Origin: Acidimicrobiales bacterium
GTDB taxonomy: Bacteria; Actinomycetota; Acidimicrobiia; Acidimicrobiales; Aldehydirespiratoraceae
Reading direction: 5' to 3'
DNA length: 64,000 nt
Assembly (NCBI GenBank): GCA_022425325.1
Contig: JAKMFW010000047.1
Span: 7,608 to 71,607, forward strand
Part shown: one piece after another, positions 487-59,726 of the stretch
How the letters are laid out: each line of letters starts with the position of its first letter
How positions within the stretch are numbered: the first letter of the stretch is position 1
Made by a program: the position numbers and the translations under genes
The notes under the pieces: generated by a model
What the model saw: the letters and a program-made list of their open reading frames with translations, nothing else
Told to the model about the DNA's origin: nothing
Databases searched by the model: none

Positions 487-567
487 GCCGAGCAGTGTGG
501 CACCTGCCCGGCGTCGGAGCGAGGACAGATGCGGGCGGACCTCCGGCAGATGGGTACGGTGACGCCG

Positions 568-1377
568 ATGCTCCCGCTCTTGTCACCGGACCTGGTCGAG
601 TCGTTCGGCCGGGACGGCGCTGTCGTGCTGCGGGGTGTGTTCTCCGACTGGATCGAGACCCTCGCTGTCGGGGTGGCCAAGAACGAGGCCGCCCCGGGGG
701 AGTACTTCGCCGAGAACGTGCCCGCCGGAGCGCCGGGCCGTTTCTGGGACGACTACGTCAATTGGGGGCGCATCCCCGAGTTCGAACGCTTCGCTTGCGA
801 ATCCGATGTTGCTCGCCTCGCCGCCGAACTGATGGCGTCCGACACCGTGCAGCTGTTCCACGATCACGTCCTCGTGAAAGAACCCGGCACACCGACCGTC
901 ACGCCGTGGCACAGCGACCGCCCGTACTACTTCGTCGACGGTGCGCAGACGGTCAGTTTCTGGATCCCCCTCGATCCGGTCACGACTGAGACGACCCTCC
1001 GTCTGATCGCCGGATCCCACCTATGGGAGAAGGACGTGCTCCCGGTGCGCTGGCTCAAGGGAGACGACTTCTACCCGGATACCGATGACTACCTGCCGGT
1101 GCCCGACCCCGACCGCGATCCCGATCGGTATGACGTGCTCGAGTGGGCACTCGAACCGGGCGACGCCATCGCGTTCCACTTCGGCGTCGTGCACGGCGCC
1201 CGCGGGAATCCCGGCGCCGGACGTCGGCGGGCATTCTCTCTGCGGCTCGTTGGCGATGATGCCCGCTATGTCTCACGTCCCGGTCGCACCTCACCGCCGT
1301 TTCCCGGCCACGGGATGGTCGACGGTGATCGACTGCGCTCCGACTGGTTCCCGGTGCTGATCGGCTCGATCTCGTGA
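568..1377 (+). CDS. Phytanoyl-CoA dioxygenase (PhyH) family Fe(II)/2-oxoglutarate dioxygenase
   Basis: TPWHSD (HxD), VSFWIPLD, distal VVHGA His. Start moved to ATG 568 because the upstream part overlaps the crotonase on the other strand. Confidence 0.88.
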   Translation: MLPLLSPDLVESFGRDGAVVLRGVFSDWIETLAVGVAKNEAAPGEYFAENVPAGAPGRFWDDYVNWGRIPEFERFACESDVARLAAELMASDTVQLFHDHVLVKEPGTPTVTPWHSDRPYYFVDGAQTVSFWIPLDPVTTETTLRLIAGSHLWEKDVLPVRWLKGDDFYPDTDDYLPVPDPDRDPDRYDVLEWALEPGDAIAFHFGVVHGARGNPGAGRRRAFSLRLVGDDARYVSRPGRTSPPFPGHGMVDGDRLRSDWFPVLIGSIS

Positions 1378-4425: not shown

Positions 4426-4902
4426 ATGAAGCGTCTGCTGTTGGCCATCACGGCCGCTTTCGCCTTGACCATCGCCGTCGCCCCGCCGGCGTCGGCTCAG
4501 ACCGTCGAGATCGACCCGAATCCGGTGTCGGGAGCCGGTGAGCAAGAGATCACGGTGACCGGTACTGGCTTCGCTCAGGACGGTTTCCTGTTGCCCTGCC
4601 CAGGGGCCAACGCCGATCCGGCCCAGCTCGCCGAGGACTCGTGCGATCTCACCAACCTGACCCCGTATACCGCTGGTGACTGGGAGCGCACCGTCACTTA
4701 CGACGTGCCTGCGGTCGGACTCCTGATCGTGGCCGGCAGCGCCGACCAGACCGAGGTCGTGACGGGCCTCATCGAGGTTGACGGTGGCGGCGACTTGGCC
4801 AACACCGGTGGCAACACCGAGGCCTACCTGCTGCTCGCTTTCGTGTTGTTCGGCGCCGCAGCCGTCTTCACCATGGGGGGCCGCAAGCTGCAGCGAGTGT
4901 GA
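4426..4902 (+). CDS. Secreted cell-wall anchored protein with LAXTG sorting signal
   Basis: Signal peptide MKRLLLAITAAFALTIAVAPPASA; C-terminal LANTG + hydrophobic stretch + basic tail RKLQRV; two Cys. Confidence 0.85.
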   Translation: MKRLLLAITAAFALTIAVAPPASAQTVEIDPNPVSGAGEQEITVTGTGFAQDGFLLPCPGANADPAQLAEDSCDLTNLTPYTAGDWERTVTYDVPAVGLLIVAGSADQTEVVTGLIEVDGGGDLANTGGNTEAYLLLAFVLFGAAAVFTMGGRKLQRV

Positions 4903-5747
4903 GCGCACGGGGTGCGGGCCGTCGGCGCCGTCTGGCGGCCCGAACCGCAACACGCCTCGGGGTGCTCTGTGCGCTCGGGGCACTCGGTGTACTCGCCTTC
5001 GCCGCCTGGGAGCTCTGGGGTACCGGCCGCAAGGAAGCGGCGGTGCAACAGGAGCTCCGGACCGCGTTCGAGTTCGTCGAGGGTTCGACGACCACCTCCA
5101 GTGCACCGTCCGCAGCGGACGACGTTGTGGCGGATGTCGAACCCGACCTGCCCGGCGGTATCTCTGCCGAGCTGGCTCGCGCTCGCTTTCCGGAGGACGG
5201 CGATGCCCTTGCCCGGCTGGAGATCCCGGCGATTGAACTCGACAAGTTTGTAATGCGAGATGTCGATCGGGAGTCGCTCCAGGTCGGCCCCGGCCATTAC
5301 CGCGGCACACCACGACCCGGTTTCTCCGGCAACAGCGCCATCGCAGGTCATCGCTCGACCTATGGAGCGCCGTTCAAACGGGTCGACGAGCTCGCGCCAG
5401 GTGACGCAATCACGGTGCACTCGGCTGACGGCATCTTCTCCTTCAAGGTCGTGAGTCCTGCCGCGGCGTTCGGCGACCGGCTCGACACCATCGAACCCGA
5501 CAAGGTCTCTGCCGGGTCCGTCATCGTCGATCCGAGCGACACCTGGGTTGTCTCGGATTTCGGCGACGCTCGGCTCACGCTCACGGCCTGCCACCCCGAG
5601 TTCACGTCAAGAAAGCGGATTGTGGTCGTGGCCGAACTGGTGAGCGAGGCGGTTCCGCTGGCAGCCGTCTTCGGCGGTCTCGATGCGGACGAACTCAACG
5701 AGCTCGTCACCGAGGACCTCGGCGTGCTCGAAAACTCAGCGTCGTAG
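4899..5747 (+). CDS. Sortase, class E-like
   Basis: N-terminal TM, GPGHYRGTPRPGFSGNSAIAGHRSTYGAPF, LTLTACHP, catalytic Arg in RKRIVV; overlaps substrate stop codon (GTGA). Confidence 0.92.
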   Translation: MSARGAGRRRRLAARTATRLGVLCALGALGVLAFAAWELWGTGRKEAAVQQELRTAFEFVEGSTTTSSAPSAADDVVADVEPDLPGGISAELARARFPEDGDALARLEIPAIELDKFVMRDVDRESLQVGPGHYRGTPRPGFSGNSAIAGHRSTYGAPFKRVDELAPGDAITVHSADGIFSFKVVSPAAAFGDRLDTIEPDKVSAGSVIVDPSDTWVVSDFGDARLTLTACHPEFTSRKRIVVVAELVSEAVPLAAVFGGLDADELNELVTEDLGVLENSAS

Positions 5748-6650
5748 CGGACGGGGCCGCGAGCCGATGCCTGCCTGGCCGGTAATGACGCCCGTGAGGG
5801 CGACGAGCACGAGGACGATTGCGCAGACCTGCATCCCGGTGACCGGCTCGTCGAGGAACGCCCACGCCACCGCAGTCGAGATGACCGGAACGAGCAGGGT
5901 GAAGGTGCTCCCGAGCCACAGCGGGATCTGTTGGAGCGACCAGTTCATGACCGCATGGCCCAGCACACCGGCACCGAACGCCATCAGCAGCAGCCAGCCC
6001 CAGCTCTCGAGCGTGGGCCAGGCGAGGCTCTGCCCGAAGAGCAAGGCGAGCGGGGCGTTGATGATCGCCACCCAGAGCGCGGCACCGACGGTGTAATCGT
6101 TGGTGCTGATGACATCTTTCGCCCGCTTGGCGAAGACGAAGTAGGCCGACCAGGCGAACAGTGCCCCGACGGCGAGGAGGTCGCCGCGCCAGTCGGTCGG
6201 GGCGTCGGAGGCGGCGCTGAGCACGACGATCACGACGCCGGCGATGGCGACCAGTCCGAGCGCCATGTCGCGTGGCCGGATGATCTCCCCGAAAACCCGG
6301 TTGGCTGCGATGGCGACGACGATCGGTTGCAGCGCGCCGATCACGGTTGCGTTGGCGATGGTGGTCAGCTTCACCGCCGAGAAAAACAGTGCGACATCGA
6401 AGCCGAGCGCGATGCCCCCGGCCATAGATGCCCGCATCACGTTCCAGCCAATGCGATGGCGACGAGCGGCCATGAGGGCCGCGACGACGAGTCCGTACGT
6501 ACCGAACCGGTAGGCCGCCACTGCGAGGCCCTCCATGTCGACCTCTTTCGCGATGACGCTCGACACGCCCCACGCCGAGACGGCGACCGCGGCACCGATC
6601 AGGCCACGACCGTTGATGGCGTCCTCGGTGTCGACATCAGTCCCGGGCAT
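5736..6650 (-). CDS. DMT/EamA family transporter
   Basis: About 10 TM segments in two EamA repeats, WAFLDEP C-terminal motif. Confidence 0.9.
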   Translation of the reverse strand: MPGTDVDTEDAINGRGLIGAAVAVSAWGVSSVIAKEVDMEGLAVAAYRFGTYGLVVAALMAARRHRIGWNVMRASMAGGIALGFDVALFFSAVKLTTIANATVIGALQPIVVAIAANRVFGEIIRPRDMALGLVAIAGVVIVVLSAASDAPTDWRGDLLAVGALFAWSAYFVFAKRAKDVISTNDYTVGAALWVAIINAPLALLFGQSLAWPTLESWGWLLLMAFGAGVLGHAVMNWSLQQIPLWLGSTFTLLVPVISTAVAWAFLDEPVTGMQVCAIVLVLVALTGVITGQAGIGSRPRPLRR

Positions 6651-6678
6651 CGCGGCACGTTACCGGTGCCACCCGTTG

Positions 6679-7029
6679 CTACATCTCGTTCTGGGCGAGG
6701 AAGCTCTCGTAGACCTGGATCAGGACCTGCTTCTGGTCGTGGGTCAGGTCGTCTTGGGCCCGGATGGCGGCGATCAGATCGGCCTCGGGTTCCTCGTCGA
6801 GGATGCCGGCGCGGACGTAGAGGGATTCCGCCGAGACCTCAAGCGCTCGCGCGATCTGCTGCAGGATCTCCGCACTCGGCCGCTTCAGGCCTCGTTCGAT
6901 CTGGCTGAGGTACGGATTTGAGACGCCGGCGAGGTCGGCGAGTTTCCGAACGGAGAGTTCGGCCTGGCGGCGCTGTTCACGGATGTACTCACCGAGGTCG
7001 GCGACGGCGTGTCGAGGATCGGGTGGCAC
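6679..7029 (-). CDS. XRE-family HTH transcriptional regulator (Rv0474-like)
   Basis: LGEYIREQRRQAELSVRKLADLAGVSNPYLSQIERGLKRPSAEILQQIARAL; GTG 7029 with GGAG upstream. Confidence 0.92.
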   Translation of the reverse strand: MPPDPRHAVADLGEYIREQRRQAELSVRKLADLAGVSNPYLSQIERGLKRPSAEILQQIARALEVSAESLYVRAGILDEEPEADLIAAIRAQDDLTHDQKQVLIQVYESFLAQNEM

Positions 7030-7064
7030 GAGGACTCCAACAGTAGGGGAGGGATGGTGGGCGA

Positions 7065-7107
7065 AAAGCATCGCAGCCGGGCCGCCATGATGGCAGTCCG
7101 GCTGCGA
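7065..7107 (-). terminator. Intrinsic terminator after the Lys/Ala-tail gene
   Basis: Minus strand TCGCAGCCGG-ACTGCC-ATCAT-GGCGGC-CCGGCTGCGA followed by TGCTTTT. Confidence 0.7.
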
Positions 7108-7149
7108 CGAGGGGGACCCAGGGAACGGCGGAGTGGCCGTTGCGAGATG

Positions 7150-7479
7150 TCAGGCCTTCTTCGCTGCCTTCTTGGTGGCCTTCGGGGCGGCGACCTTCGG
7201 TGCATCGATACCGAGGAAGCCCCAGGCGGCCTTGCGGCCGGTCTCGACGGGACCGGCGACCTGCTCCGGCAGGCGCTCGACGACCTTGGCGGCCAGCGGT
7301 TCGGTGCGGCCACGAAGATCGGTAAGGGCCTCAGTGCCCTTGGCGCGGGCGGTGGCGGCGTGCTCGGTGACGGCCTTGGGAGCCGGAACCTCACGGCCGA
7401 TGATGGCGTCGGTGACGACAAGGTTGACGCCGACGCCGGTGTAGGCGACGTTCTTGACCTGATCGAGGACAGCAGTCAT
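7150..7479 (-). CDS. Small helical protein with Lys/Ala/Pro-rich tail (HBHA/phasin-like)
   Basis: AGGAG RBS; amphipathic Ala-rich body; C-terminus APKVAAPKATKKAAKKA; adjacent to Rv0474-like regulator. Confidence 0.7.
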   Translation of the reverse strand: MTAVLDQVKNVAYTGVGVNLVVTDAIIGREVPAPKAVTEHAATARAKGTEALTDLRGRTEPLAAKVVERLPEQVAGPVETGRKAAWGFLGIDAPKVAAPKATKKAAKKA

Positions 7480-7525
7480 GGGGGATCTCCTGTGAGAGGT
7501 TGGTGCACGCTCTTGCGTGCCGATT

Positions 7526-7543
7526 TGCGTACAATAGTTAGCA
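7526..7543. promoter_or_regulatory. Imperfect inverted repeat over AT-rich divergent promoter region; candidate XRE operator
   Basis: TGCGTAC-AATA-GTTAGCA, contains TACAAT on + and TATTGT on -. Confidence 0.4.
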
Positions 7544-7601
7544 CTGAAGGGGAATGCAACCTCGGCAGCGCATTTTCGCTAGCCAAAGTTTGCAGTGCGA
7601 G

Positions 7602-8123
7602 ATGACCAAGTCGCGACACATCGACGTGCTCGGCACGATCTGGCACACCGATCGCCACGAGCGGACATCGCTCGGTCGCATCGTCGAGGCGGCGAAGGAC
7701 CGCGACGACAGCGCGGCACGTGCCCGCATCGTCGACGAGATCCATTCCTGGGTGGCGGGCGGCGGACTCATGGTCGAACCCGATGCGATCGTCGTCGGCA
7801 TCCCCTCCAGCCCCGATCGACCCAATCTGCTCGTGACGGCGGTTGCCCGAGCGATCGCGACAGCGACGGGGTCCGTCTCGGTCGATGCGGTCGTTCGGCA
7901 TCGAGTGACGGTGCGGCTGCGAGATCTTGATCCGACGGAACGCCCGGCGACGGTTCTCGCTGCGGACTACGAGGTCGTCGAAGACGTTGGGGGCCGCCAT
8001 GTCGTCCTCGTCGATGATGTTGTGCTGAGCGGCACGACCCTCGACCACGTCGCCGACCTGCTGCTCGCTGCCGGCGCCGCCTCGGTGCGACCGGTCGCCA
8101 TCGCCCGATCCCGTCGTGGCTGA
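7602..8123 (+). CDS. Type I phosphoribosyltransferase domain protein (ComF C-terminal-like)
   Basis: PRPP-binding loop HVVLVDDVVLSGTTL and LLAAGAASV. Confidence 0.8.
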   Translation: MTKSRHIDVLGTIWHTDRHERTSLGRIVEAAKDRDDSAARARIVDEIHSWVAGGGLMVEPDAIVVGIPSSPDRPNLLVTAVARAIATATGSVSVDAVVRHRVTVRLRDLDPTERPATVLAADYEVVEDVGGRHVVLVDDVVLSGTTLDHVADLLLAAGAASVRPVAIARSRRG

Positions 8124-8165
8124 GCGTCTGGGTTCACGTACTGCGTGAACCCAGGCAGCGACGTC

Positions 8166-8801
8166 TTATCCGCCGCGTCGCTCCAACAACCGTTCGATCC
8201 AGCGCTCGTAGCTCTCGAGATCCTGCGCGCCCTGCACCGGCAGGACATCGTCGAGCACGATCGTCGGCACGGCGGTGACGCCCTGCTCAATCGCCGCATT
8301 GTGTTCGTCGATCACCGAGGCGGCGTAGACCCGTTCGTTCTCGACGAGGTTGCGGATGAAGCCGCCCGCATCGACCCCGACGTCGGCGGCGAGGTCGGCG
8401 AGTACCTCGGCGTCGGAGATCGTGCGGTTCTCTGCGAAGTACGCGTCCATCAGTCGGCGGTGGTACGCATCGGTCGCCGCAGGAGCAAAGGCCTCCATCG
8501 CCTTCTGGGCGATCTGGGCAGGCATCGAGCCCGATGGCTGGGCGTGGTCGGTGGCCCATACGGAAAAGGTCAGGCTGGGCTCGGCTGATGCCGGTCGCAG
8601 CCAACTCTTCGTGTACTCGACGAATTTCTCGTGTTTCGCCGGGTCGCCGCCGTCGTTGTCGGGGCGAAGCAGAAACGACTTCCACTCGACAGCGATGCGG
8701 TCACTGAATCGCGTCCGGAGCTGCTCGACGCGAACTGCGCCGACGTAGCACCAGGGTCAGAGGAAGTCAGACCAGACAGTCAATCGAACGGGTTCTCCCA
8801 C
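8166..8801 (-). CDS. DsbA/FrnE family oxidoreductase, probable selenoprotein (UGA at 8757-8759 read as Sec)
   Basis: In-frame translation MGEPVRLTVWSDFL-U-PWCYVGAVRVEQL... continues into ORF 8166..8525 with cis-Pro loop GVTAVPT. TGA occupies the first Cys of CPWC. Confidence 0.88.
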
Positions 8802-8898
8802 AGCGGGCACGGTAGCCCGAGGCCGGAGGCAGATCACTCTCATCGGATGCCGACGGGAGGACACGGCGGTTCCTCCCATCGCGTGACAGAGTCATGGC

Positions 8899-9768
8899 AT
8901 GGCCATCTGCGCATTTCTCGGACTCGGTGTCATGGGGTACCCCATGGCCGGACATCTCGTGGCTGCTGGTCACCGCGTCACCGTGTACAACCGAACGACG
9001 GCGAAAGCCGAGCGATGGGTTGCGGAGCACGGTGGGGCGATGGCGACGACTCCGGCTGCTGCGGCCGAGGGCGCCGAGTACGTCTTTCTGTGTGTCGGTG
9101 ACGATCCCGACGTACTCGCCGTGACCACGGGTGCCGACGGCGTCCTCGAGACGATGGGGGAGGGCACGGTGCTTGTCGACCACACGACTGCGTCGGCGGT
9201 CATCGCCCGTGAGGTCCACGCGGCGGCTGCTGCTCAGGGTGTCGGTTTTGTCGATGCGCCGATCTCAGGCGGACAGGCCGGCGCCGAGAACGGGGTGCTC
9301 ACAGTGATGTGCGGCGGCGACCAGGCTGATTTCGATCGGGTTGCCCCGGTGATCGACGCCTACAGCCGTGCCTGCAACCTCCTTGGCGGCCCTGGTTCCG
9401 GTCAGCTCACGAAGATGGTCAATCAAATCTGCATTGCCGGTCTCGTGCAGGGGCTTTCCGAGGGCGTCAACTTCGCCCAGCGGGCGGGACTCGATGTCGG
9501 AAGCGTCGTCGACACGATCTCGAAGGGCGCAGCCGGTTCGTGGCAAATGGAAAATCGGGCCCAGACGATGGCCGACGGTGTCTTCGACTATGGCTTCGCG
9601 CTCGACTGGATGCGCAAGGACCTGCGGATCTGCTTCCAGGAAGCCGCGGCGAACGGGTCAGCGCTGCCGGTGACCGAGATCGTCGACGGCTATTACGAGC
9701 AGCTCCAGGGACTCGGGCTCGGCCGCTGGGACACCAGCACGCTGATCCACCTGCTTCGTCAGGAGTGA
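8899..9768 (+). CDS. NAD(P)-dependent 3-hydroxyisobutyrate dehydrogenase-family oxidoreductase
   Basis: FLGLGVMGYPMA, DAPISGG, GSGQLTKMVNQ motifs. Confidence 0.92.
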   Translation: MAICAFLGLGVMGYPMAGHLVAAGHRVTVYNRTTAKAERWVAEHGGAMATTPAAAAEGAEYVFLCVGDDPDVLAVTTGADGVLETMGEGTVLVDHTTASAVIAREVHAAAAAQGVGFVDAPISGGQAGAENGVLTVMCGGDQADFDRVAPVIDAYSRACNLLGGPGSGQLTKMVNQICIAGLVQGLSEGVNFAQRAGLDVGSVVDTISKGAAGSWQMENRAQTMADGVFDYGFALDWMRKDLRICFQEAAANGSALPVTEIVDGYYEQLQGLGLGRWDTSTLIHLLRQE

Positions 9769-22243: not shown

Positions 22244-22351
22244 GTTAGAGGCCCTCACACCTGACGGTGTGTCAGGCACTCGCCAGTGTCCGAATTGGGG
22301 GATTCGGACGACGACGGCGCTGCCCTACGAGGCGGCGCCGTCGTCGCGTCT
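22244..22351 (+). ncRNA. Candidate small structured RNA (three hairpins)
   Basis: TAGCCT -10 box at 22233-22238; hairpins at 22260-22276, 22288-22309 (G-rich loop) and a 16-bp hairpin at 22309-22346. Confidence 0.4.
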
Positions 22352-22401
22352 GGACGCAGACGGTTCGCCCTGGAACAAGACCTGAGCCAGACTCAGCATT
22401 T

Positions 22402-24714
22402 GTGAGCGACACGCCAAAGGCCTACGACGGTTTCGACGGAGAGGTCGGACGGATCTTCTCGACGTCCGAACCGTCCTGGCCGACCTTCCCGACGGCGCCA
22501 ACCGGTGCGCCCAACGTCATCGTGATGCTGGCCGACGATCTCGGGTTCGCCGACCTCGCCTGCTACGGCTCCGAGATCGACACCCCCAACCTCGACGCCC
22601 TCGCCGCCGGTGGTGTGCGCTACACCAACTTCCACGTCAATCCGATGTGCTCGCCGACCCGCGCCTCGATGCTCACCGGCCTCAACCACCACATGGCCGG
22701 CATGGGGCACGTCGCTCACAGCGACCCCGGCTTCCCCGGCTACACCCATGAACTGCGTGACGACGCCGTCACCATGGCCGAACTGTTCCGCGACAACGGC
22801 TGGGCCTCGCTCATGGTCGGCAAATGGCACCTGTGCAAGGACGCGCATCTCTCCGACGCCGGGCCCCGTCACAGCTGGCCGCTGCAGAAGGGCTTTGAGC
22901 GCTACTACGGCATCCTCGACGGCTTCACGAACTTCCATCAGCCGCACCGGCTGTACGAGGACAACCACCACATTCCGGTCGACCAGTACGCCGACAACTA
23001 CTACTTCACCGACGACCTCACCGATCAAGCGATCCACATGATCGACGAGGTCCGGGCATCGCATCCCACCAAACCCTTTTTCATGTACTTCGCCCACGGC
23101 GCCGTCCACGCGCCACTACAGGCGAAGGTCGACGACATCGAGAAGTACCGCGGCGTGTACGACGCCGGCTGGGACGAGATCCGTCGGCAGCGCTACGAGC
23201 GTCAACTCGAGATGGGTGTCATTCCACCTCACACCGAGCTTCCGCCCCGCAATACCGAGGCGGGGCATGCCGTCGAGGCGTGGGACAACCTCAGCGACGA
23301 CGAGAAGCGAATCTTCGCCCGCTACATGGAGATCTTCGCCGGGATGGTCGACAACATCGACCAGAACCTCGGCCGGCTCCGGACCCACCTCGAGGCCATG
23401 GGGGAGTGGGACAACACGATCATCGTGTTCACCTCCGACAACGGCGGTTCGCGCGAAGGTCAGGAACTCGGCACGTCGGCGTACTTTCGCACCCTTGTCA
23501 GCCAGACCCGCCAGAACAGCCTCGACTCGGTGGATCTTGACCTGCCGAATCTCGATGCCATGGGTGGGCCGACCAACCTGCCGCACTATCCGATGGGGTG
23601 GGCGATGGTGTCGAGCACCCCGTTCCGGCTCTACAAGATCAACACGCACCAGGGCGGGCATCAGGTGCCGTTCATCGTCCACTGGCCGGCCGGCCTTTCG
23701 GCCGCCGGTGAAGTGCGCACTCAGTACCAGCACATCACCGACCTGCTCCCGACGCTCGCCGAGCTTTGCGGGGTCGAGGTGCCGACGACCAAGGGTGGCC
23801 GTCCGGTACCCGAACCCGCCGGTGCATCGATGGTGCCGACCCTCGACGACGATGGCATTGCGACCACGCATCCCGAGCAGTACTACGAGCAGATCGGCCA
23901 CCGCGGCTTCTATCGCGACGGCTGGTCGGCGGTCACCTGCCGTCAGCCCCGTGAGCCGTTCAGCGAAGAACAGTGGGAGCTGCACAACCTTCACGACGAT
24001 CCGACGGAGACCAACGACCTTGCGGCCGAGCATCCGGAGAAGCTCAGAGAACTCCAGGACGCCTGGGAGGATGCAGCCTGGGCCAACCAGGTCTTCCCGC
24101 TCGATGAGGGCAATTACGTGAAGATGATGGCCCAGCCGCCCTGGAACGCTGAACTGGCCGAGCCCATCACCCTCCGTCCGGGCATGCCCACGGTCGAACG
24201 ATGGCGTTCACTCCAGCTGATCTCCAGTCGAAGCTTCACGGTCGACATCGACGTCGATCTGGCCGACGGCGACGACGGCGTGCTCGTGGCCCACGGCGAT
24301 CAGGGCGGTGGGTACTCGCTCGCCATCGACGACGGTCGCCTGATCCACGCCCATAACGGCTACGGCGAGATGACCATCGTCGACTGCGGTCCCGTCGCCG
24401 CCGGGCGCCACACGATCACGCTCGACGTGGCCGACGTCGGTGACGTCACCTGGGAGCCGCGTGTCCTTGTCGACGGCGAACAGGTCGCCGAGGCCGGCCA
24501 GGTTCCCCGGCTGATGGCGATGGCACCGTTCGAAGGCATCGATGTCGGCATCGACCGGCGTTCACCGGTCAACTGGGAGCTCTACGAGCGCAAGGGGGTT
24601 GCCCGTTTCACCGGCACGATCCACGGGGTCACGTTCACGCCCGGCGACCTCGCCCCCGACAACGGCAGCCAGTACCTCCAGATGCTCAAGGAGATGGGCA
24701 CCAAGTACGAGTAG
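22402..24714 (+). CDS. Arylsulfatase (Cys-type, formylglycine-dependent) with C-terminal extra domain
   Basis: MLADDLG, CSPTRASMLTG, GKWHL, HAPLQ, FTSDNG; GTG start 22402. Confidence 0.93.
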   Translation: MSDTPKAYDGFDGEVGRIFSTSEPSWPTFPTAPTGAPNVIVMLADDLGFADLACYGSEIDTPNLDALAAGGVRYTNFHVNPMCSPTRASMLTGLNHHMAGMGHVAHSDPGFPGYTHELRDDAVTMAELFRDNGWASLMVGKWHLCKDAHLSDAGPRHSWPLQKGFERYYGILDGFTNFHQPHRLYEDNHHIPVDQYADNYYFTDDLTDQAIHMIDEVRASHPTKPFFMYFAHGAVHAPLQAKVDDIEKYRGVYDAGWDEIRRQRYERQLEMGVIPPHTELPPRNTEAGHAVEAWDNLSDDEKRIFARYMEIFAGMVDNIDQNLGRLRTHLEAMGEWDNTIIVFTSDNGGSREGQELGTSAYFRTLVSQTRQNSLDSVDLDLPNLDAMGGPTNLPHYPMGWAMVSSTPFRLYKINTHQGGHQVPFIVHWPAGLSAAGEVRTQYQHITDLLPTLAELCGVEVPTTKGGRPVPEPAGASMVPTLDDDGIATTHPEQYYEQIGHRGFYRDGWSAVTCRQPREPFSEEQWELHNLHDDPTETNDLAAEHPEKLRELQDAWEDAAWANQVFPLDEGNYVKMMAQPPWNAELAEPITLRPGMPTVERWRSLQLISSRSFTVDIDVDLADGDDGVLVAHGDQGGGYSLAIDDGRLIHAHNGYGEMTIVDCGPVAAGRHTITLDVADVGDVTWEPRVLVDGEQVAEAGQVPRLMAMAPFEGIDVGIDRRSPVNWELYERKGVARFTGTIHGVTFTPGDLAPDNGSQYLQMLKEMGTKYE

Positions 24715-24731
24715 CCACGTAGCATCCGGGC

Positions 24732-25259
24732 ATGGCGATCAGCTTCCTGGACCCACGTGGCGAGTCGGCCGTCGAGCCGACTCCGTATGACCTCTCCACC
24801 CGTCTCGATCCCGGCGTCACGGTCGGACTGCTCGCCAACGGCTTCCCTGGCTCCGTCGAGTTTCTCGACGCGGTCGGCGAAGCGATCACCGCACGGCGGC
24901 CCGGCATCGAGCTTGCACGCTGGAACAAGGGCGACGCCTCGGCCATCGCCAACGACACCATGCTCGGCGAGATTGAAGCCGAGTGTGTGGCGGTGGTCGC
25001 CGCCTACGGGCATTGAGGGAGCTGCACGACCGGCACCGTGCGTGACGGCATCAACATGGCTCGTCGAGACATCCCGGCGGTCGCCCTCGTGACCGACGAG
25101 TTCTGGGCCCAGGGTGACTTCATCGCCACCTCGTTCGGCATGCCCGACATCCCGCGGGTACAGCTCCCGCACCCCGTGGCGGGCACCGGGACCGACAACC
25201 ATCGCCTGGTCGCCGAGAAGATCGCCGCTGAGCTTGTCGCTGCACTCGAGGATTCGTGA
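24732..25259 (+). CDS. UGSC family selenoprotein, copy 1 (UGA at 25014-25016)
   Basis: ORFs 24732..25016 and 25038..25259 are in frame; junction reads AYGH-U-GSCTTGTVRDG...DIPAV...PHPVAG; 175 aa. Confidence 0.88.
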
Positions 25260-26269
25260 TGGCCGCCCTGCTCACTGCCGACGATGAGGCCGCCGCCCTC
25301 GAACAGCTCCACGAACTCGGCTGTACCGACGGCCTCCCCGTCGTCGTCCCCACGCCCGAGCGGGTCGAGCGCATGGTGCTCGCCGTTGGTCACCCGGCCG
25401 AGACCGCACTCGGCGAGATGGGGCCGCTCCAGGGGGTGTGCACGGTCGAGAAGCTCGCAGCGGCGGCCGTCATGGCCGGGTGCCTGCCCGACCACATGCC
25501 GATCGTCGTGGCGTCGGCCCTGGCGATGATGGACCCGGCATTCGATCTGGCCGAGATGCAGGGCACGACCCACGCCACTGCGCCGCTGATCATCGTCAAC
25601 GGGCCGGCCCGTGCGATGTGCGGCGTCGCCTCGGGATACGGCGCCCTCGGCCCCGGCCACCGTGCCAATGCGTCGATCGGGCGGACGATCCGATTGGCGA
25701 TGATCAACATCGGCGGGGCCCGACCCGGCACGTCCGACATGGCCCTGCTCGGTCACGGCGGCAAGTTCGGACAGTGCCTCGGGGAGGACGAAGCGCACAG
25801 CCCGTTCGCACCGCTCCACACGAGCCGAGGCTTCGCCGCCGAGGACTCGGCCGTCACGGTTATCGGCACGGAGCCGCCACAGTCGGTGGCGCACGTTGCC
25901 GGAAGTGACGTCAAGCGATCGAGCGAACGTCTCATCGACCTCCTGGCGGCATCGGTCGCCGGCGTCGGTTCGAACAACGCCTGGCTGGGCGGTGGGCAGG
26001 CCGTGATCGTACTGACGCCCGACCACATCGGGGAACTGGCCGAGGCCGGCCACGATCGATCATCGACGACCGCGGCGATCGGCGAACGGGCGACGACGCG
26101 CGACGGTCGGCCTGCGTTCGAGTCGGCCGACGACGTCCTGCTCGTCGCCGCCGGTGGATCCGGGCTCTACAGCTATGTCTTCCCGACCTGGTGTGCAGGG
26201 GCGAACCGCAACCGGGCCGTCACCCGTCCGATCGACATCGGCCAGGCCTGCGCCATTCCCGAGCGCTGA
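25256..26269 (+). CDS. Uncharacterised UGSC-associated protein
   Basis: TDGLPVVVPTPERVERM, TVEKLAAAAVMAGCLP, QGTT, IIVNGP, RANASIGR; overlaps UGSC stop; paralogous to 58185..59636. Confidence 0.85.
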   Translation: MMAALLTADDEAAALEQLHELGCTDGLPVVVPTPERVERMVLAVGHPAETALGEMGPLQGVCTVEKLAAAAVMAGCLPDHMPIVVASALAMMDPAFDLAEMQGTTHATAPLIIVNGPARAMCGVASGYGALGPGHRANASIGRTIRLAMINIGGARPGTSDMALLGHGGKFGQCLGEDEAHSPFAPLHTSRGFAAEDSAVTVIGTEPPQSVAHVAGSDVKRSSERLIDLLAASVAGVGSNNAWLGGGQAVIVLTPDHIGELAEAGHDRSSTTAAIGERATTRDGRPAFESADDVLLVAAGGSGLYSYVFPTWCAGANRNRAVTRPIDIGQACAIPER

Positions 26270-57666: not shown

Positions 57667-58188
57667 TCAGTCCTGCGGGCCCGTGAGCTTCGCGATGAGC
57701 GCCTCGACCGTGTCGTCTGCGATCTCGCGCATCTCGTCGTCGGTGCGGTCCTGGATCGGGTGTGGCGTGAAGACTCGGGCGGTGGGGTGCCCGAGCGCCG
57801 TGGCCTGGGTTTCGGCGGCGTCGATGAAACCCTCGGAGGCCACGAAGACTCCCGGGATACCGCGTCGTTCAAGGTCGCTGATGTCGTGCACACTGCACGT
57901 CGTGCAGCTGCCTCAATCGGCGAGCGCCTCGATCACCGCATCGCACGATGTGGCGATCTCGTGGCGAAGATCGACCGGTGCGGGCTTGGCGAAGGTCGGC
58001 TTCATGAAGCGCGTGACCGACGCACCGAGCCCGGTGAGCTTCTCCTCAACTCGGTCGAGGAAGACGTCACCGCGCGGTTTGGAGATGTCGAGGAGTCCGA
58101 TGGTGAGACCGTCGAGCGATTCGGGCCGCGGCACGAGTTCGCGCTGCTCCGGGCGGGACTCGCTGGTCGGGTCGAGGACGGTGGTCAT
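57667..58188 (-). CDS. UGSC family selenoprotein, copy 2 (UGA at 57913-57915)
   Basis: ORFs 57913..58188 and 57667..57891 are in frame; junction ALAD-U-GSCTTCSVHDISDLERRGIPGV...PHPIQD; 173 aa. Confidence 0.9.
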
Positions 58189-59636
58189 CGAGTGATCTCC
58201 TTCGTCGTGCAGACACTACCTTTCGGCGGTGGAACCCAGCCACTGAAGGCCATCGAGAACAGGCCGGTCGCCCCGCCGGCGTGCACCACGTGGATGCCCC
58301 CCGGCCAGAACTTGCCGATCGTGTTGCCTGCGAACGCTTCGGGCAGGCCTTCGTCGATGCCGTCGGCGCCTCGGATCAGATCGTCGGTGTCCAGCTGGAG
58401 ATGGGAGTCCAGTTCGGCGAGGAACCGGGCTCGATCCCAGCCGGCGTCCCGGAACCGGGACATGTGCTCGGGGCCGATCACGAGCAGGGTCTCCATCATC
58501 GCCATCTTCGGGGCGAGGTTGGTCTTGAGAGAGTTGGCGAAATGCTTTGTGAGCGACTCCGGCGTGCGGGAGAGCTGATCGACGAAGACCTGCGGTCCGC
58601 CGCCGCACCAGACAGTGACGGTCGACTGGTCGGCGTCGAAACCTCGGCTTTCGGCGAGCGAGGTCCACGGCGAGCCGACCTCGTCCTCGGCGAACGCAAG
58701 ACCGATCTTGTGAGGGCTGCCGTGTGCCGAGCGGTCGACACCCCCGGGCTTGCCTCCGCCGACGTTGCGCACGACGAGTTGCACGGCCCGGCCGATCGTG
58801 GCATTGGCCCGGTTGCCTTGGCCGAGCACGTTGCCGCCGGAGTTCATGCCGATCTCCCGGGCGATCGGCCCGTTGACGATGATGATGGGGCCGACATCCA
58901 TCGTCGTGGCGAGCACACCGTGCATGTTGAAGTCGTCGGTGCAGATCGCCTCGACCGCGGCGATCACGACCGGCAGGTAGTCGGGCCGGCAACCGGCCAT
59001 CACGGCATTGATCGCGATCTTCTCGACGGTCACGTCGGCGAGGTCCGGTGGCACGACGGCCACGATCTCGTCGGGGGCGCGGGTGGTGCCCTCGAGCATC
59101 CGAAGGACGCGGGCTTCGGTGGGGGGAACGACGGGCAGGCCGTCGGACCAGTCCCGGTCGTAGAGGGCCTCCCACTCGTCTTCGAGGGCGGCGATCTCGA
59201 CCCGCCGGCTGCACATCGTCGAGCCGGAGAACCGCACGGCGAGTTCGTCGGTGCGATTCGGATCGACACTCAGTGAGCCGCAACCGGGACGCCAGTCGGG
59301 CAGATCAGCACCCAGGTCGTTGATCCCCGTGAAGGCCTCCCAGTCGTCGCGCTTCCAGCCTTCGAGCCGTTCGGTCGGTTCGCCGTCGACGACGCGCAGC
59401 AGGGTCGGCACGGTGTCGATGTCGTGGAACCACGAATAGGCGAGATCGTGGTCGTGTACGACCCAGTCCGCCGCCTGCGGGAACGCCGCATTGTCCTGGG
59501 TGATCGTGGTCATCGACGCACGGTCCGCAAGATCGGCCAGTACGGGCGCGACGAGCACACAGGTCGGGCAGTCCTCCTTGACGATCGCGACGAGGCCGTC
59601 GGGCAGCAGCGGTTTGGCAGTGGTGATCTCGGCCAT
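58185..59636 (-). CDS. Thioredoxin-like domain (CPTC) fused to UGSC-associated domain
   Basis: KEDCPTC...IDTVPTL N-terminal domain; WSDGLPVVPPT, TVEKIAINAVMAGCRP, RANATIGRA; 4-nt overlap with the UGSC start. Confidence 0.88.
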   Translation of the reverse strand: MAEITTAKPLLPDGLVAIVKEDCPTCVLVAPVLADLADRASMTTITQDNAAFPQAADWVVHDHDLAYSWFHDIDTVPTLLRVVDGEPTERLEGWKRDDWEAFTGINDLGADLPDWRPGCGSLSVDPNRTDELAVRFSGSTMCSRRVEIAALEDEWEALYDRDWSDGLPVVPPTEARVLRMLEGTTRAPDEIVAVVPPDLADVTVEKIAINAVMAGCRPDYLPVVIAAVEAICTDDFNMHGVLATTMDVGPIIIVNGPIAREIGMNSGGNVLGQGNRANATIGRAVQLVVRNVGGGKPGGVDRSAHGSPHKIGLAFAEDEVGSPWTSLAESRGFDADQSTVTVWCGGGPQVFVDQLSRTPESLTKHFANSLKTNLAPKMAMMETLLVIGPEHMSRFRDAGWDRARFLAELDSHLQLDTDDLIRGADGIDEGLPEAFAGNTIGKFWPGGIHVVHAGGATGLFSMAFSGWVPPPKGSVCTTKEITR

Positions 59637-59726
59637 GGTGTGCATCGTCGCACACTGCACCGGCCCGTGAGATATGCGTCACACGCCCTTCACCTCGGCG
59701 TGCACGCTCACTACCGTTCACCCCCC

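What the first reader, a model, noticed from the sequence alone, without database searches (positions are those of the whole stretch)
57667..59636. Hidden two-gene Sec-dependent redox system: thioredoxin-fused partner plus UGSC selenoprotein with a GrdB/PrdB-like active site
Seen: a gene of about 483 aa (N-terminal CPTC thioredoxin domain plus an uncharacterised domain) overlaps the start of a gene split by one in-frame TGA. Read-through gives ALAD-U-GSCTTCSVHDISDLERRGIPGV...PHPIQD. Knowledge: UGSC-motif selenoproteins are a catalogued family with no established function that I know of. The Sec region of glycine/betaine/sarcosine reductase GrdB, as I recall it, has the pattern U-G-T-C-T-R-C...ERAGIP...PHP, and those reductases take electrons from thioredoxin. 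Inference: this is a compact enzyme in which a Sec nucleophile performs reductive bond cleavage, the partner domain binds substrate and the fused thioredoxin recycles Sec. It sits in an apparently aerobic actinobacterium, with no other grd genes in view.
Basis: partly seen in the sequence, partly recalled or inferred. Interest (0 to 1): 0.92.

Follow-up and report, generated by a model that had tools for sequence, protein, structure and literature searches.

The report
UGSC selenoprotein with obligate partner enzyme
A small selenocysteine protein of a catalogued but functionally unknown family sits next to, and almost everywhere travels with, a thioredoxin-fused protein of no described family, so the two very likely form one selenium-dependent redox enzyme whose substrate is still unknown.

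Summary
On the minus strand a 483-aa gene (58185-59636) overlaps by ATGA the start of a 173-codon gene (57667-58188) with one in-frame TGA (57913-57915).

The small gene is a UGSC-family selenoprotein, over the NCBIfam and Pfam cut-offs. The genome has selA, selB, a Sec-containing selD and tRNA-Sec. Homologues carry TGA, Cys, or TAG in Geodermatophilaceae, whose tRNA-Sec has anticodon CUA. A hairpin follows every stop-codon form examined.

The partner is a thioredoxin fold with CPTC, then an arm, then a 340-aa core. The core has no Pfam or NCBIfam family and no clear solved structural relative.

Core and UGSC are nearly inseparable:
- 40 of 45 core genes in 401 Actinomycetota genomes are linked to a UGSC gene.
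- 76 of 80 loci from many phyla are linked.
- Natural fusions exist, and this genome holds four pairs.

The UGSC Sec region is a probable remote homologue of the GrdB/PrdB Sec region (hhalign 44% and 68%). It is not a Grd/Prd member: no GrdE/PrdA or GrdA was found, and the core is unrelated to GrdB-N or GrdE.

The reductive-cleavage chemistry and the substrate remain inference.

The parts
58185..59636 (-). Partner gene, 483 aa: thioredoxin domain, Cys-bearing arm and core domain. Public records call it 'thioredoxin family protein' or 'hypothetical protein'.
   Evidence: ORF. At least 8000 homologue clusters, none with a Pfam domain. No Pfam or NCBIfam hit at E<=0.01.
59322..59621 (-). Thioredoxin-fold domain (residues about 6-105) with CPTC at residues 23-26 (nt 59559-59570).
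   Evidence: VIA-align Z 8.6, rmsd 2.5-2.7 over 83-88 residues to thioredoxins. Foldseek probability 1.00 to thioredoxins. C23 and C26 are invariant in 29 sequences.
59220..59321 (-). Linker or arm with the invariant motif LPDWRPGCGSL (C119, nt 59280-59282). It is modelled with low confidence.
   Evidence: C119 and its neighbours are invariant in alignment A1. pLDDT is below 50 for residues 124-171.
58188..59219 (-). Core domain (residues 140-483) of no described family. Near-invariant residues are D165, C216 (nt 58989-58991), R276, N278, R283, E317 and H391.
   Evidence: Model pLDDT 91.9, pTM 0.92. Best VIA Z is 5.5, with none at 8 or more. Foldseek to class I fumarate hydratase gives E 9.9e-5 but TM only 0.27. 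There are 5647 clusters at 50% identity with E<=0.001.
58185..58188 (-). ATGA overlap of the partner stop and the UGSC start, which suggests translational coupling.
   Evidence: Sequence and ORF ends.
57667..58188 (-). UGSC-family selenoprotein gene, 173 residues with Sec at position 92, ending at TGA 57667-57669.
   Evidence: Translation. NF041046 scores 155 bits and PF24696 scores 157 bits.
57913..57915 (-). In-frame TGA read as selenocysteine (U92 of the motif U-G-S-C-T-T-C).
   Evidence: At this position homologues have TGA in 72, TAG in 2 and TGC in 2 of 76 loci. They have TGA in 26 and Cys in 9 of 35 loci.
57877..57908 (-). SECIS-like hairpin just 3' of the UGA. The inner stem is CGUGCA/UGCACG with loop GUG (57883-57901), and the outer stem is GCUG/CAGC.
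   Evidence: Fold; the z-score alone is unremarkable at -0.65. A hairpin at the same offset occurs in 74 of 74 stop-codon homologues and in 0 of 2 Cys homologues. A compensatory C-G to G-C change is seen in a paralogue type.
24732..25259 (+). Second UGSC-family selenoprotein gene in the window (paralogue, AYGH-U-GSCTTG), with its Sec codon at 25014-25016.
25259..26269 (+). Second core-domain gene (336 aa, no thioredoxin domain). Its start overlaps the stop of the paralogous UGSC gene (TGATG).

Best explanation
The two genes encode one two-component selenoenzyme.

The small protein is a genuine UGSC-family selenoprotein. Its Sec92-x-x-Cys95 motif follows a hydrophobic stretch that I take, from sequence only, to be a strand. 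That module is a probable distant relative of the Sec-bearing C-terminal part of GrdB/PrdB.

The large protein supplies a substrate-binding catalytic core. The core belongs to an undescribed family and has a pocket of near-invariant residues: D165, C216, R276, N278, R283, E317 and H391.

Proposed cycle (inferred):
1. Sec92 attacks the substrate, or an adduct on C216, held by the core.
2. Cys95 resolves the intermediate to a selenenylsulfide.
3. In this subtype the bond is reduced through Cys98 and the partner's own fused thioredoxin domain (CPTC), possibly via the arm Cys119.
4. The thioredoxin domain is itself recharged by cellular thioredoxin reductase.

My odds for each step:
- Sec decoding: shown, about 0.95.
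- Functional partnership of UGSC and core: shown by genomics, about 0.9.
- Homology of the Sec module to GrdB/PrdB: probable, about 0.7.
- Thioredoxin-to-UGSC relay: inferred, about 0.55.
- Reductive cleavage of a small-molecule bond, as in proline or betaine reductase: inferred, about 0.25.
- The substrate is unknown.
For: Sec decoding:
- selA, selB and a TGA-containing selD are present, and tRNA-Sec(UCA) is present.
- The family HMMs score over their cut-offs.
- 29 of 44 UGSC matches in 401 Actinomycetota genomes have exactly one TGA and the rest have none.
- Across 76 loci from many phyla the codon is TGA in 72, TAG in 2 and TGC in 2. A hairpin of at least 6 bp at +13..+36 is present in 74 of 74 stop-codon forms and in 0 of 2 Cys forms.
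- The two TAG cases are a Blastococcus MAG and Geodermatophilus obscurus. The tRNA-Sec of G. obscurus has anticodon CTA. This agrees with passages read in PMC5330540.
- RNA-library contigs bridge the TGA and the gene junction. This is weak evidence.

Partnership:
- UGSC is found in 29 of 401 genomes and the core in 29 of 401; 28 genomes have both.
- 40 of 45 core matches have a UGSC match on the same strand within 1.4 kb, and 38 within 200 nt (my reading).
- 76 of 80 loci from Actinomycetota, Proteobacteria, Myxococcota, Chloroflexota and other phyla have UGSC immediately downstream.
- Both gene orders occur, and so do fusions.
- 6 of 7 representatives of about 420-450 aa begin inside the UGSC C-terminal half, and one 542-aa protein is a full fusion.
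- This genome has four pairs, all with TGA.

GrdB/PrdB likeness:
- TIGR01917 matches residues 77-149 to model positions 332-399 at E 8.7e-5.
- 5 of 9 UGSC proteins hit GrdB models.
- hhalign against 12 GrdB sequences gives probability 44% and E 2.3e-4 over 83 columns.
- hhalign against 10 PrdB-like sequences gives probability 68% and E 4.8e-5.
- Sec aligns with Sec in both comparisons.

Thioredoxin relay:
- The N-terminal domain has a thioredoxin fold.
- A thioredoxin-like N-extension with CxTC co-occurs with the third Cys of U-G-S-C-x-x-C in 88 loci.
- The 18 loci that lack the third Cys have no real thioredoxin domain.
- That third Cys falls on the Cys of GrdB's U-G-T-G-T-R-C when the two Sec residues are lined up by hand.

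Core as an enzyme:
- The model is confident, with pLDDT 91.9.
- C216 is kept in 120 of 123 loci, D165 in 122 of 122, R283 in 123 of 123 and E317 in 122 of 123.
Against: - There is no structure or model of UGSC, because both fold jobs went to the partner.
- No complex prediction was obtained.
- No GrdB/PrdB structure is solved to compare with.
- The homology probabilities are only moderate (44% and 68%), and HMM scores lie far below the family cut-offs.
- The core shows no relation to GrdB-N (probability 1%) or to GrdE (probability 0.3%). The Prd/Grd analogy therefore rests on the small subunit alone.
- Gene neighbourhoods give no consistent substrate clue. Among 98 ORFs from 17 loci and 113 ORFs from 21 loci, the commonest family occurs in only 5-6.
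- The thioredoxin domain reaches no Pfam threshold.
- The link between the thioredoxin domain and the third Cys could reflect one clade's shared descent rather than function, since related genomes are not independent.
- Cys forms exist, so Sec is not indispensable.
- The hairpin overlaps conserved codons (C-S-V-H-D), so part of its conservation is protein-driven.
- The window hairpin's folding z-score is only -0.65.
Confidence: 0.45

Rival explanations
1. UGSC is not the catalytic subunit. It is a dedicated 'selenoredoxin', a small redox carrier that only re-reduces the catalytic Cys216 of the core. That Cys might carry a disulfide, sulfenate or persulfide. All chemistry on the substrate is done by the core, and the resemblance to GrdB/PrdB reflects only a shared redox-loop architecture.
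For: - The literature assumes a thioredoxin-like redox role for UGSC (PMC2398784 and PMC13188914, passages read).
- The U-x-x-C motif is of redox type.
- C216 is kept in 120 of 123 core domains.
- Cys forms of UGSC exist: 9 of 35 and 2 of 76.
- The core is unrelated to the pyruvoyl partners of GrdB/PrdB.
- Double-core proteins without any UGSC exist in one genome, G281. So the core can exist without UGSC.
Against: - A generic carrier would not need to be encoded next to, or fused to, each of four paralogous cores in one genome.
- The Sec-on-Sec alignment extends over 70-83 columns beyond the redox loop.
- The fused thioredoxin domain already provides a carrier in this subtype. A second pure carrier would be redundant.
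Confidence: 0.3
2. The pair is a true, merely split or trimmed, member of the glycine/sarcosine/betaine/D-proline reductase family. It would carry out the same chemistry on one of those substrates.
For: - Weak GrdB, GrdF, GrdH and PrdB HMM hits fall on the Sec region.
- hhalign supports the likeness.
- A gene like the DMSP-demethylase gene (DmdA) lies between core and UGSC in one paralogous operon. This hints at methylated onium substrates.
Against: - Scores are 15-22 bits against cut-offs of 65-800 bits.
- Only 70-83 columns align. UGSC lacks the 200-330 N-terminal residues of PrdB/GrdB.
- No PF09338 (GrdE/PrdA) and no PF04723 (GrdA) match was found in the genome. PF09338 was found in 5 of 5 GrdB-bearing genomes, so that search works.
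- The core is unrelated to GrdB-N or GrdE.
Confidence: 0.03
3. The adjacency is incidental synteny. UGSC would be a free-standing antioxidant selenoprotein, and the neighbour an unrelated thioredoxin-like protein.
For: Other neighbours of the pair, such as prolyl oligopeptidase, MBL-fold and MutY-like genes, recur in 5-6 of 17 related loci through plain synteny.
Against: - Linkage holds across phyla in 76 of 80 loci.
- It holds in both gene orders, with overlapping stop and start codons.
- It holds as fusions.
- It holds for all four paralogues in this genome.
- The two genes share presence and absence in 401 genomes.
Confidence: 0.03
4. The TGA is a genuine stop, from a pseudogene or from two short ORFs, and no selenoprotein is made.
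For: Gene callers truncate most homologues at about 95-100 aa. No protein-level data exist for this organism.
Against: - The frame and family signal continue across the TGA.
- Cys and TAG-Sec homologues exist.
- The hairpin tracks the stop codon.
- The full Sec machinery is present.
Confidence: 0.02

Closest known systems
UGSC family (seleno)protein (NCBIfam NF041046, Pfam PF24696), the 'UGSC-containing protein' of Zhang and Gladyshev
   Same: - It is a full-length match over both curated cut-offs.
- It has the U/C-G-S-C-T motif.
- Homologues alternate between Sec and Cys.
- It comes from an aquatic Acidimicrobiia-like organism, and seawater, marine and estuary metagenomes hold the locus.
- It is a member of this family.
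   Different: Nothing differs at family level. New here are the documentation of a near-obligate partner, the link between the thioredoxin domain and the third Cys, and the profile-level link to GrdB/PrdB. The papers I read give no function. They assume a thioredoxin-like fold (PMC2398784 and PMC13188914, passages only).
Selenoprotein B of glycine/sarcosine/betaine reductase (GrdB/GrdF/GrdH) and D-proline reductase PrdB (TIGR01917/TIGR01918/PF07355)
   Same: - Sec lies at the same place, after a hydrophobic stretch. It is followed by G-[ST]-x-T-x-C, then E-R-x-G-I-P, then a P-x-P turn and a C-terminal stretch, with Sec aligned on Sec.
- It works with a second, larger subunit encoded next door.
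   Different: - Only 70-83 columns align, with scores far below the cut-offs.
- UGSC lacks the N-terminal 150-330 residues.
- The partner is not the pyruvoyl protein GrdE/PrdA.
- There is no GrdA and no GrdC/D context.
'UGSC/Unknown_1 fusion' noted in the GOS selenoproteome (PMC2398784, text passage and legend of Fig. S1A)
   Same: A UGSC domain fused to a conserved domain of unknown function found in aquatic organisms. This matches the UGSC-core fusions seen here.
   Different: The supplement could not be opened. That 'Unknown_1' is this core domain is therefore my inference. The paper mentions only the fusion, not the separate-gene pairs, the thioredoxin-fused form or the GrdB link.
Class I (Fe-S) fumarate hydratase, and YjgF/chorismate-mutase-like or 'Toblerone' folds
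   Same: These are the best structural hits for the core. Foldseek gives E 9.9e-5 and probability 0.94 to Leishmania fumarate hydratase. VIA gives Z 5.1 over 159 residues to the M. jannaschii alpha subunit. RidA, chorismate mutase and cyanuric acid hydrolase rows recur.
   Different: TM is only 0.17-0.28 with rmsd 12-17 A, and no Z reaches 8. Only one Cys is near-invariant, so there is no three-Cys cluster site. At most this is a distant sharing of sub-domain architecture.

Membership tests
UGSC family (NF041046 / PF24696) | Whole-protein HMM score over the curated cut-off | tested here: met
   155 bits against a cut-off of 125, and 157 bits against a cut-off of 25.
UGSC family (NF041046 / PF24696) | [U/C]-G-S-C motif with Sec or Cys at the first position in homologues | tested here: met
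   G93 and C95 are invariant in 34 sequences, and S94 and T96 nearly so. The codon is TGA in 72, TAG in 2 and TGC in 2 of 76 loci, and TGA in 26 and Cys in 9 of 35 loci.
Bacterial selenoprotein (any) | Sec machinery in the same genome (selA, selB, selD, tRNA-Sec) | tested here: met
   selA scores 371 bits, selB 288 bits and selD 364 bits with one TGA. tRNA-SeC (tca) lies on contig C66.
Bacterial selenoprotein (any) | SECIS hairpin just 3' of the UGA | tested here: met
   A hairpin lies at +13..+36 in the window. It is present in 74 of 74 stop-codon homologues and in 0 of 2 Cys homologues. Different stem sequences occupy the same offset in the paralogue types, with one compensatory pair. No binding to SelB was tested.
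GrdB/PrdB selenoprotein B family (TIGR01918, TIGR01917, PF07355) | HMM score over the curated cut-off | tested here: not met
   TIGR01918 scores 17.8 bits against 65.45, and TIGR01917 scores 21.6 bits against 602.
GrdB/PrdB selenoprotein B family (TIGR01918, TIGR01917, PF07355) | Sec-bearing C-terminal module homologous, with Sec aligned on Sec | tested here: inconclusive
   hhalign gives probability 44% and E 2.3e-4, and probability 68% and E 4.8e-5. Sec aligns with Sec in both. This is probable, not proven.
GrdB/PrdB selenoprotein B family (TIGR01918, TIGR01917, PF07355) | N-terminal 150-330 residues of the family present | tested here: not met
   UGSC has 91 residues before Sec, and only columns 332-418 of 426 align. 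The core does not replace GrdB-N (probability 1%).
GrdB/PrdB selenoprotein B family (TIGR01918, TIGR01917, PF07355) | Pyruvoyl partner GrdE/PrdA (PF09338), and GrdA for the glycine-type enzymes | tested here: not met
   There are 0 matches to PF09338 and to PF04723 in the 95%-complete genome. PF09338 was found in 5 of 5 GrdB-bearing genomes. Core against GrdE gives probability 0.3%.
GrdB/PrdB selenoprotein B family (TIGR01918, TIGR01917, PF07355) | Same three-dimensional fold | not testable with these tools
   No solved GrdB relative was found by profile search. PMC11229817 (passages read) used AlphaFold models only. No UGSC model was made here.
Thioredoxin-fold proteins (partner N-terminus) | Thioredoxin fold with CxxC at the start of helix 1 | tested here: met
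   Z 8.6, rmsd 2.5-2.7 over 83-88 residues. CPTC is invariant. A helix at residues 24-28 follows the strand at 14-19.
Thioredoxin-fold proteins (partner N-terminus) | Match to a Pfam thioredoxin-family model | tested here: not met
   No family reaches E<=0.01. The best is TraF at E 0.066.
Class I fumarate hydratase / Fe-S hydro-lyase | Shared fold over the domain | tested here: inconclusive
   Foldseek gives E 9.9e-5 but TM 0.27 and rmsd 16. VIA gives Z 5.1 and 4.5.
Class I fumarate hydratase / Fe-S hydro-lyase | Three conserved Cys ligands for a 4Fe-4S cluster (feature recalled from memory) | tested here: not met
   Only C216 is near-invariant across the family. C232 is Cys in 64 of 123 loci. 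C119 lies outside the core.

The most novel reading that the evidence does not exclude
UGSC plus core is a third, previously unrecognised branch of the GrdB/PrdB type of selenoenzyme. In it, the minimal Sec module has been re-partnered with a substrate subunit that has no solved structural relative. It would perform thioredoxin-driven reductive cleavage of a small organic molecule in aerobic aquatic bacteria. The substrate could be a methylated onium or osmolyte compound, as the DmdA-like gene inserted in one paralogous operon hints. That would make it one of the most abundant uncharacterised selenium-dependent reactions in surface waters.
Probability: 0.2. Interest if true: 0.85.

Novelty: new variant of a known kind. 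Interest (0 to 1): 0.62.

Why it matters
[quoted passage not shown] A 2026 review still groups them among proteins whose functions remain largely uncharacterised (PMC13188914, passage).

UGSC almost never occurs without one particular partner domain. That domain has no Pfam or NCBIfam model, although it forms more than 5600 clusters at 50% identity. A subtype carries its own thioredoxin. The Sec module looks like that of the Stickland reductases.

Together these points turn an orphan selenoprotein into a defined two-protein system. It can be co-expressed, purified and assayed, and it has a concrete electron path to test. It also marks a large uncatalogued protein family for database curation. 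Finally, it marks systematic mis-annotation: UGSC genes are cut at the TGA, and fusions are called from just after the Sec codon.

Tried and rejected
The question whether CPTC or C216 approaches Sec92 stays open.
- The whole-partner model was mediocre (pLDDT 73.5), and its fold search listed only the thioredoxin domain. I therefore refolded the core alone. That used the second and last fold job, so UGSC itself was never modelled.
- VIA wide search of the core gave nothing at Z 8 or more. The family of the fold is therefore left open and is not called new.
- The profile of UGSC against solved structures gave only a chance TET3 zinc-finger match at E 1.
- The core profile against solved structures gave nothing meaningful, with the best hit at E 0.64.
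- ESM Atlas returned only the core's own family, including a 417-aa cluster that partly carries PF24696. It returned no usable hit for a Cys-type UGSC with PF24696 excluded.
- I tested whether the core equals the missing N-terminal part of GrdB, that is a 'split GrdB'. This is rejected (hhalign probability 1%).
- I tested whether the core is a GrdE/PrdA-type pyruvoyl proprotein. This is rejected at sequence level (probability 0.3%). I considered the 'A-G-C216' site as a Cys-derived pyruvoyl precursor. In the model it lies in a helix-loop-helix, not between the two strands that I recall as typical of self-cleaving sites. I give it low odds, and it is untested.
- Neighbourhood tallies gave no recurrent functional partner beyond synteny.
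- The sulfatase upstream of the second in-window pair was not apparent upstream in three related loci. I judged this from ORF sizes, not from a family search.
- The DmdA-like insert was seen only in this genome among those sampled.
- The PPTase-like ORF between core and UGSC in one relative looks like an insertion.
- The mean folding energy downstream of TGA forms (-15.5 kcal/mol, n 26) is little different from that of Cys forms (-13.2 kcal/mol, n 9). Only the fixed-position hairpin discriminates.
- The RNA-library contigs cannot prove transcription or read-through. Parts without cover mean nothing.
- The supplements of PMC2398784 (Fig. S1A) were not available, so the identity of 'Unknown_1' is unverified.
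- Mukai et al. 2016 was not read. It is recalled, and it is cited indirectly as reference 56 of PMC5330540.


Full report
**What is there**

On the minus strand a 483-codon gene runs from 59636 to 58185. An alternative GTG start lies at 59660. It ends in a TGA that overlaps the ATG of the next gene, so the overlap reads ATGA at 58185-58188.

That next gene runs to 57667 and contains one in-frame TGA at 57913-57915. Read with TGA=U it gives a 173-residue protein with ...VIEALAD-U-GSCTTCSVHDISDLERRGIPGV...TPHPIQD....

**The small gene is a real selenoprotein of a known family**

The read-through product scores 155 bits on NCBIfam NF041046, 'UGSC family (seleno)protein' (cut-off 125). It scores 157 bits on Pfam PF24696 (cut-off 25).

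The genome holding the window has 2.6 Mb in 102 contigs and is 95% complete. It encodes:
- selA (371 bits) and selB (288 bits), which lie next to each other;
- a selD that itself contains one TGA;
- one tRNA-SeC with anticodon tca.

A database search returned 2452 relatives among 2675 candidates. Most of the best 120 are 95-106 aa and cover about half of the query, which means they were cut at the TGA by gene callers. Full-length relatives carry Cys at the Sec column in 5 of 12 sequences aligned to the query. Two carry W, which probably reflects a TGA=W gene call.

In 401 Actinomycetota genomes, 29 of 44 UGSC matches contain exactly one TGA and 15 contain none.

In 76 loci from many phyla the codon is TGA in 72, TAG in 2 and TGC in 2. 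The two TAG cases are a Blastococcus MAG and Geodermatophilus obscurus DSM 43162. The tRNA-Sec of the latter (RF01852, 65 bits) has anticodon CTA. This matches passages in PMC5330540, which say that Geodermatophilaceae decode Sec at UAG and that UGSC-motif selenoproteins with TAG were reported in its reference 56. I did not read that reference; I recall it as Mukai et al. 2016. A codon that follows the anticodon of tRNA-Sec is strong evidence that this position is Sec.

A hairpin follows the codon. In the window its inner stem is CGUGCA/UGCACG with loop GUG, and its outer stem is GCUG/CAGC (57877-57908). Its folding z-score alone is unremarkable (-0.65).

A hairpin of at least 6 bp at the same offset is present in 74 of 74 stop-codon forms and in 0 of 2 Cys forms. 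The paralogue types have different stems at the same place, with one compensatory C-G to G-C exchange. Part of this conservation is confounded by conserved codons.

RNA-library contigs from salt-marsh and seawater metatranscriptomes bridge the TGA, and one bridges the gene junction. This is a weak hint of expression and nothing more.

**The partner**

Residues 6-105 form a thioredoxin fold. VIA gives Z 8.6 and rmsd 2.5-2.7 A over 83-88 residues, and Foldseek gives probability 1.00. The CPTC motif is invariant. No Pfam thioredoxin model reaches E 0.01.

An arm follows with the invariant motif LPDWRPGCGSL, modelled at low confidence.

Residues 140-483 form a core domain. It has no Pfam or NCBIfam match in any of the four paralogues of this genome. 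The core nevertheless finds 5647 representatives of 50%-identity clusters at E<=0.001, and at least 8000 clusters at 90% identity.

Folded alone with 35 diverse sequences, the core gives a confident model (pLDDT 91.9, pTM 0.92). Structure searches found only weak similarities:
- Against about 48,000 solved chains the best VIA score is Z 5.5, for a chorismate mutase over 93 residues. None reaches 8.
- Foldseek ranks class I fumarate hydratases first (E 9.9e-5, probability 0.94), but with TM 0.27 and rmsd 16 A.
- RidA/YjgF, chorismate-mutase and cyanuric-acid-hydrolase rows recur in both lists.

I therefore say only that no clear solved relative was found. I do not claim that the fold is new.

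Several residues are nearly invariant across 123 loci:
- D165 in 122 of 122;
- C216 in 120 of 123;
- R276 in 117 of 123;
- N278 in 119 of 123;
- R283 in 123 of 123;
- E317 in 122 of 123;
- H391 in 116 of 122.

This pattern is typical of an enzyme pocket.

**The two proteins belong together**

In 401 Actinomycetota genomes UGSC is found in 29 and the core in 29 (E<=1e-10); 28 genomes have both. The one genome with UGSC only has a 19-bit match. The one genome with the core only (G281) carries tandem double-core proteins.

By my reading of the two tables, 40 of 45 core matches have a UGSC match on the same strand within 1.4 kb, and 38 within 200 nt.

Among the 80 best loci of a scan of one genome per species, 76 have UGSC immediately downstream, with a gap of 8-231 nt between matches. 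That scan confirmed 587 loci, from Acidimicrobiia, Geodermatophilaceae, Myxococcota, Alpha-, Beta- and Gammaproteobacteria, Chloroflexota, Acidobacteriota and others.

Both gene orders occur. Fusions occur as well:
- This genome has one, GMGC-U-GSCTP followed by a core.
- 6 of 7 representatives of about 420-450 aa begin inside the C-terminal half of the UGSC domain. They are Sec fusions called from just after the TGA.
- One 542-aa protein is a complete fusion.

This genome alone has four UGSC-core systems, all with TGA:
1. The finding itself.
2. A second pair inside the window: UGSC at 24732-25259 and core at 25259-26269, with a TGATG overlap.
3. A third pair just upstream of the window, with a gene like the DMSP-demethylase gene (DmdA) between the two.
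4. The fusion on another contig.

Kin are not independent. Even so, the breadth across phyla, the two gene orders and the fusions make incidental synteny very unlikely.

**Relation to GrdB/PrdB**

The UGSC protein hits the GrdB, GrdF, GrdH and general selenoprotein-B models weakly. TIGR01917 gives E 8.7e-5 and 21.6 bits, matching residues 77-149 to model positions 332-399. Of 9 UGSC proteins, 5 hit GrdB models.

I collected 12 full-length GrdB genes from published Actinomycetota genomes and 10 short PrdB-like genes, including one in this genome. Profile-profile comparison gives:
- probability 44% and E 2.3e-4 over 83 columns for GrdB;
- probability 68% and E 4.8e-5 over 70 columns for PrdB-like.

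Sec aligns on Sec in both. The shared pattern is a hydrophobic stretch, then U-G-[ST]-x-T-x-C, then E-R-x-G-I-P, then a P-x-P turn and a C-terminal stretch.

I take this as probable remote homology of the Sec module. It is not family membership:
- The scores are far below the cut-offs.
- UGSC lacks the N-terminal 150-330 residues.
- No GrdE/PrdA (PF09338) or GrdA (PF04723) match was found in the genome. PF09338 was found in 5 of 5 GrdB-bearing genomes.
- The core is unrelated to GrdB's N-terminal part (probability 1%) and to GrdE (0.3%).

A fold comparison is not possible, because no GrdB relative is solved and I made no UGSC model.

**How it most likely works**

The partner of this subtype carries its own thioredoxin domain, with motif C-x-T-C (CPTC in 51 loci, CETC in 19, CATC in 12). 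That domain co-occurs with a third Cys in UGSC, giving U-G-S-C-x-x-C:
- 88 loci have both.
- Of the 7 loci with the third Cys but no detected thioredoxin domain, 3 are cut by contig ends and 1 is a pattern artefact.
- The 18 loci with UGSC but without the third Cys have no true thioredoxin domain. The 4 flagged cases are the fused UGSC's own motif.

That third Cys falls on the Cys of GrdB's U-G-T-G-T-R-C when the two Sec residues are lined up by hand.

I therefore propose a PrdB-like cycle:
1. The core holds the substrate near C216.
2. Sec92 attacks.
3. Cys95 resolves the intermediate to a selenenylsulfide.
4. Cys98 and the fused CPTC, perhaps via arm Cys119, reduce that bond.

Sec decoding and the partnership are shown. 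Homology of the Sec module is probable. The relay is inferred from co-variation. The chemistry and the substrate are inference.

The main rival is that UGSC is only a dedicated selenoredoxin for a Cys216-based enzyme.

Gene neighbourhoods do not name a substrate. In 17 loci of this subtype (98 ORFs), the commonest neighbours are prolyl oligopeptidase, MBL-fold, LPG-synthase, MauE and MutY-like genes, each in 5-6 loci, which is plain synteny. In 21 other loci (113 ORFs) the top family, Amidohydro_2, occurs 5 times. The DmdA-like insert (379 bits against a cut-off of 410) is a single-genome hint toward methylated onium compounds.

**Comparison with the literature and novelty**

In the library that can be searched, 'UGSC' occurs in 17 papers, 10 of them about selenoproteins. 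I read passages only of seven. They say the following:
- It is a selenoprotein of unknown function (PMC1976440).
- It was seen fused with a conserved domain 'Unknown_1' (PMC2398784).
- A 2026 review groups it among proteins whose functions remain largely uncharacterised (PMC13188914).

None of the passages read describes the separate-gene partnership, the thioredoxin-fused subtype or a link to GrdB/PrdB. Subscription papers and supplements could not be checked, so I do not claim priority.

The gene itself is an ordinary member of a known family. The system view is a new variant of a known kind: a GrdB/PrdB-like Sec module with an uncatalogued partner. I score interest at 0.62.

Noticed in passing
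window 22249-26269 (+): A second UGSC selenoprotein gene (24732-25259, Sec codon at 25014-25016, motif AYGH-U-GSCTTG) is followed by a stand-alone core gene (25259-26269). The pair sits directly behind an 821-aa sulfatase-family gene (22249-24714; PF00884, E 2.4e-54).
   Followed up: partly
L012 (own contig C78:1-7700, just upstream of the window) 4479-7314 (-): This is the third pair in the genome. A core gene (6274-7314) and a UGSC gene (4479-4964, GTAD-U-GSCTSW) are separated by an aminomethyltransferase gene (5091-6263). That gene scores 379 bits on the DMSP-demethylase model NF009133 (cut-off 410). It is the only hint at a substrate class, and it was seen in this genome only.
   Followed up: partly
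L013 (own contig C85) 3481-5205 (-): This is the fourth system, a single reading frame that fuses a UGSC domain (GMGC-U-GSCTP, one TGA) to a core domain. Standard gene calling would start it just after the Sec codon.
   Followed up: partly
L014 (own contig C30:60243-63605) about 1330-1905 (-): A PrdB-like selenoprotein (…LLTPV-U-PLCTRT…, one TGA; PF07355 at 31.5 bits) lies in a genome where no PrdA/GrdE match was found. It is another orphan Sec module, and its partner was not looked for.
   Followed up: partly
own genome G000: C101:10129-11055 (-), C50:9313-11519 (-), C66:10670-10765: selD itself contains an in-frame TGA, so it is a selenoprotein SelD. selA and selB are adjacent. tRNA-Sec lies on a separate contig.
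   Followed up: no
L147 (Geodermatophilus obscurus DSM 43162), L094 (Blastococcus MAG), L158 1501-1595: UGSC genes here carry TAG at the Sec position, with the same downstream hairpin. The G. obscurus tRNA-Sec has anticodon CTA, which ARAGORN labels tRNA-Pyl. This phenomenon is already published (PMC5330540, passages read).
   Followed up: yes
L071 (G281:C272) 196-2097 (+) and 7353-9044 (-): Two proteins each contain two tandem core domains (open frames of 664 and 782 aa) with no UGSC gene detected on the 9.2-kb contig. Representatives of about 710-740 aa, such as P0280 and P0292, look the same. This suggests that the core works as a dimer and can exist without UGSC.
   Followed up: no
L051 (G290:C38) 6082-6801 (+): An ORF resembling a 4'-phosphopantetheinyl transferase (E 1e-13) sits between the core and UGSC genes in one relative. 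It is probably an insertion.
   Followed up: no
L129, L144, L151, L157: Four Acidimicrobiia loci have a thioredoxin-fused core gene but no UGSC gene downstream within the fetched flank. Whether UGSC lies elsewhere in those genomes was not checked.
   Followed up: no
L015-L043 (GrdB-bearing Actinomycetota genomes): In five genomes checked, grdE lies immediately upstream of a Sec-containing grdB. So complete Grd-type B components do occur in this phylum, though not in the window's genome.
   Followed up: partly
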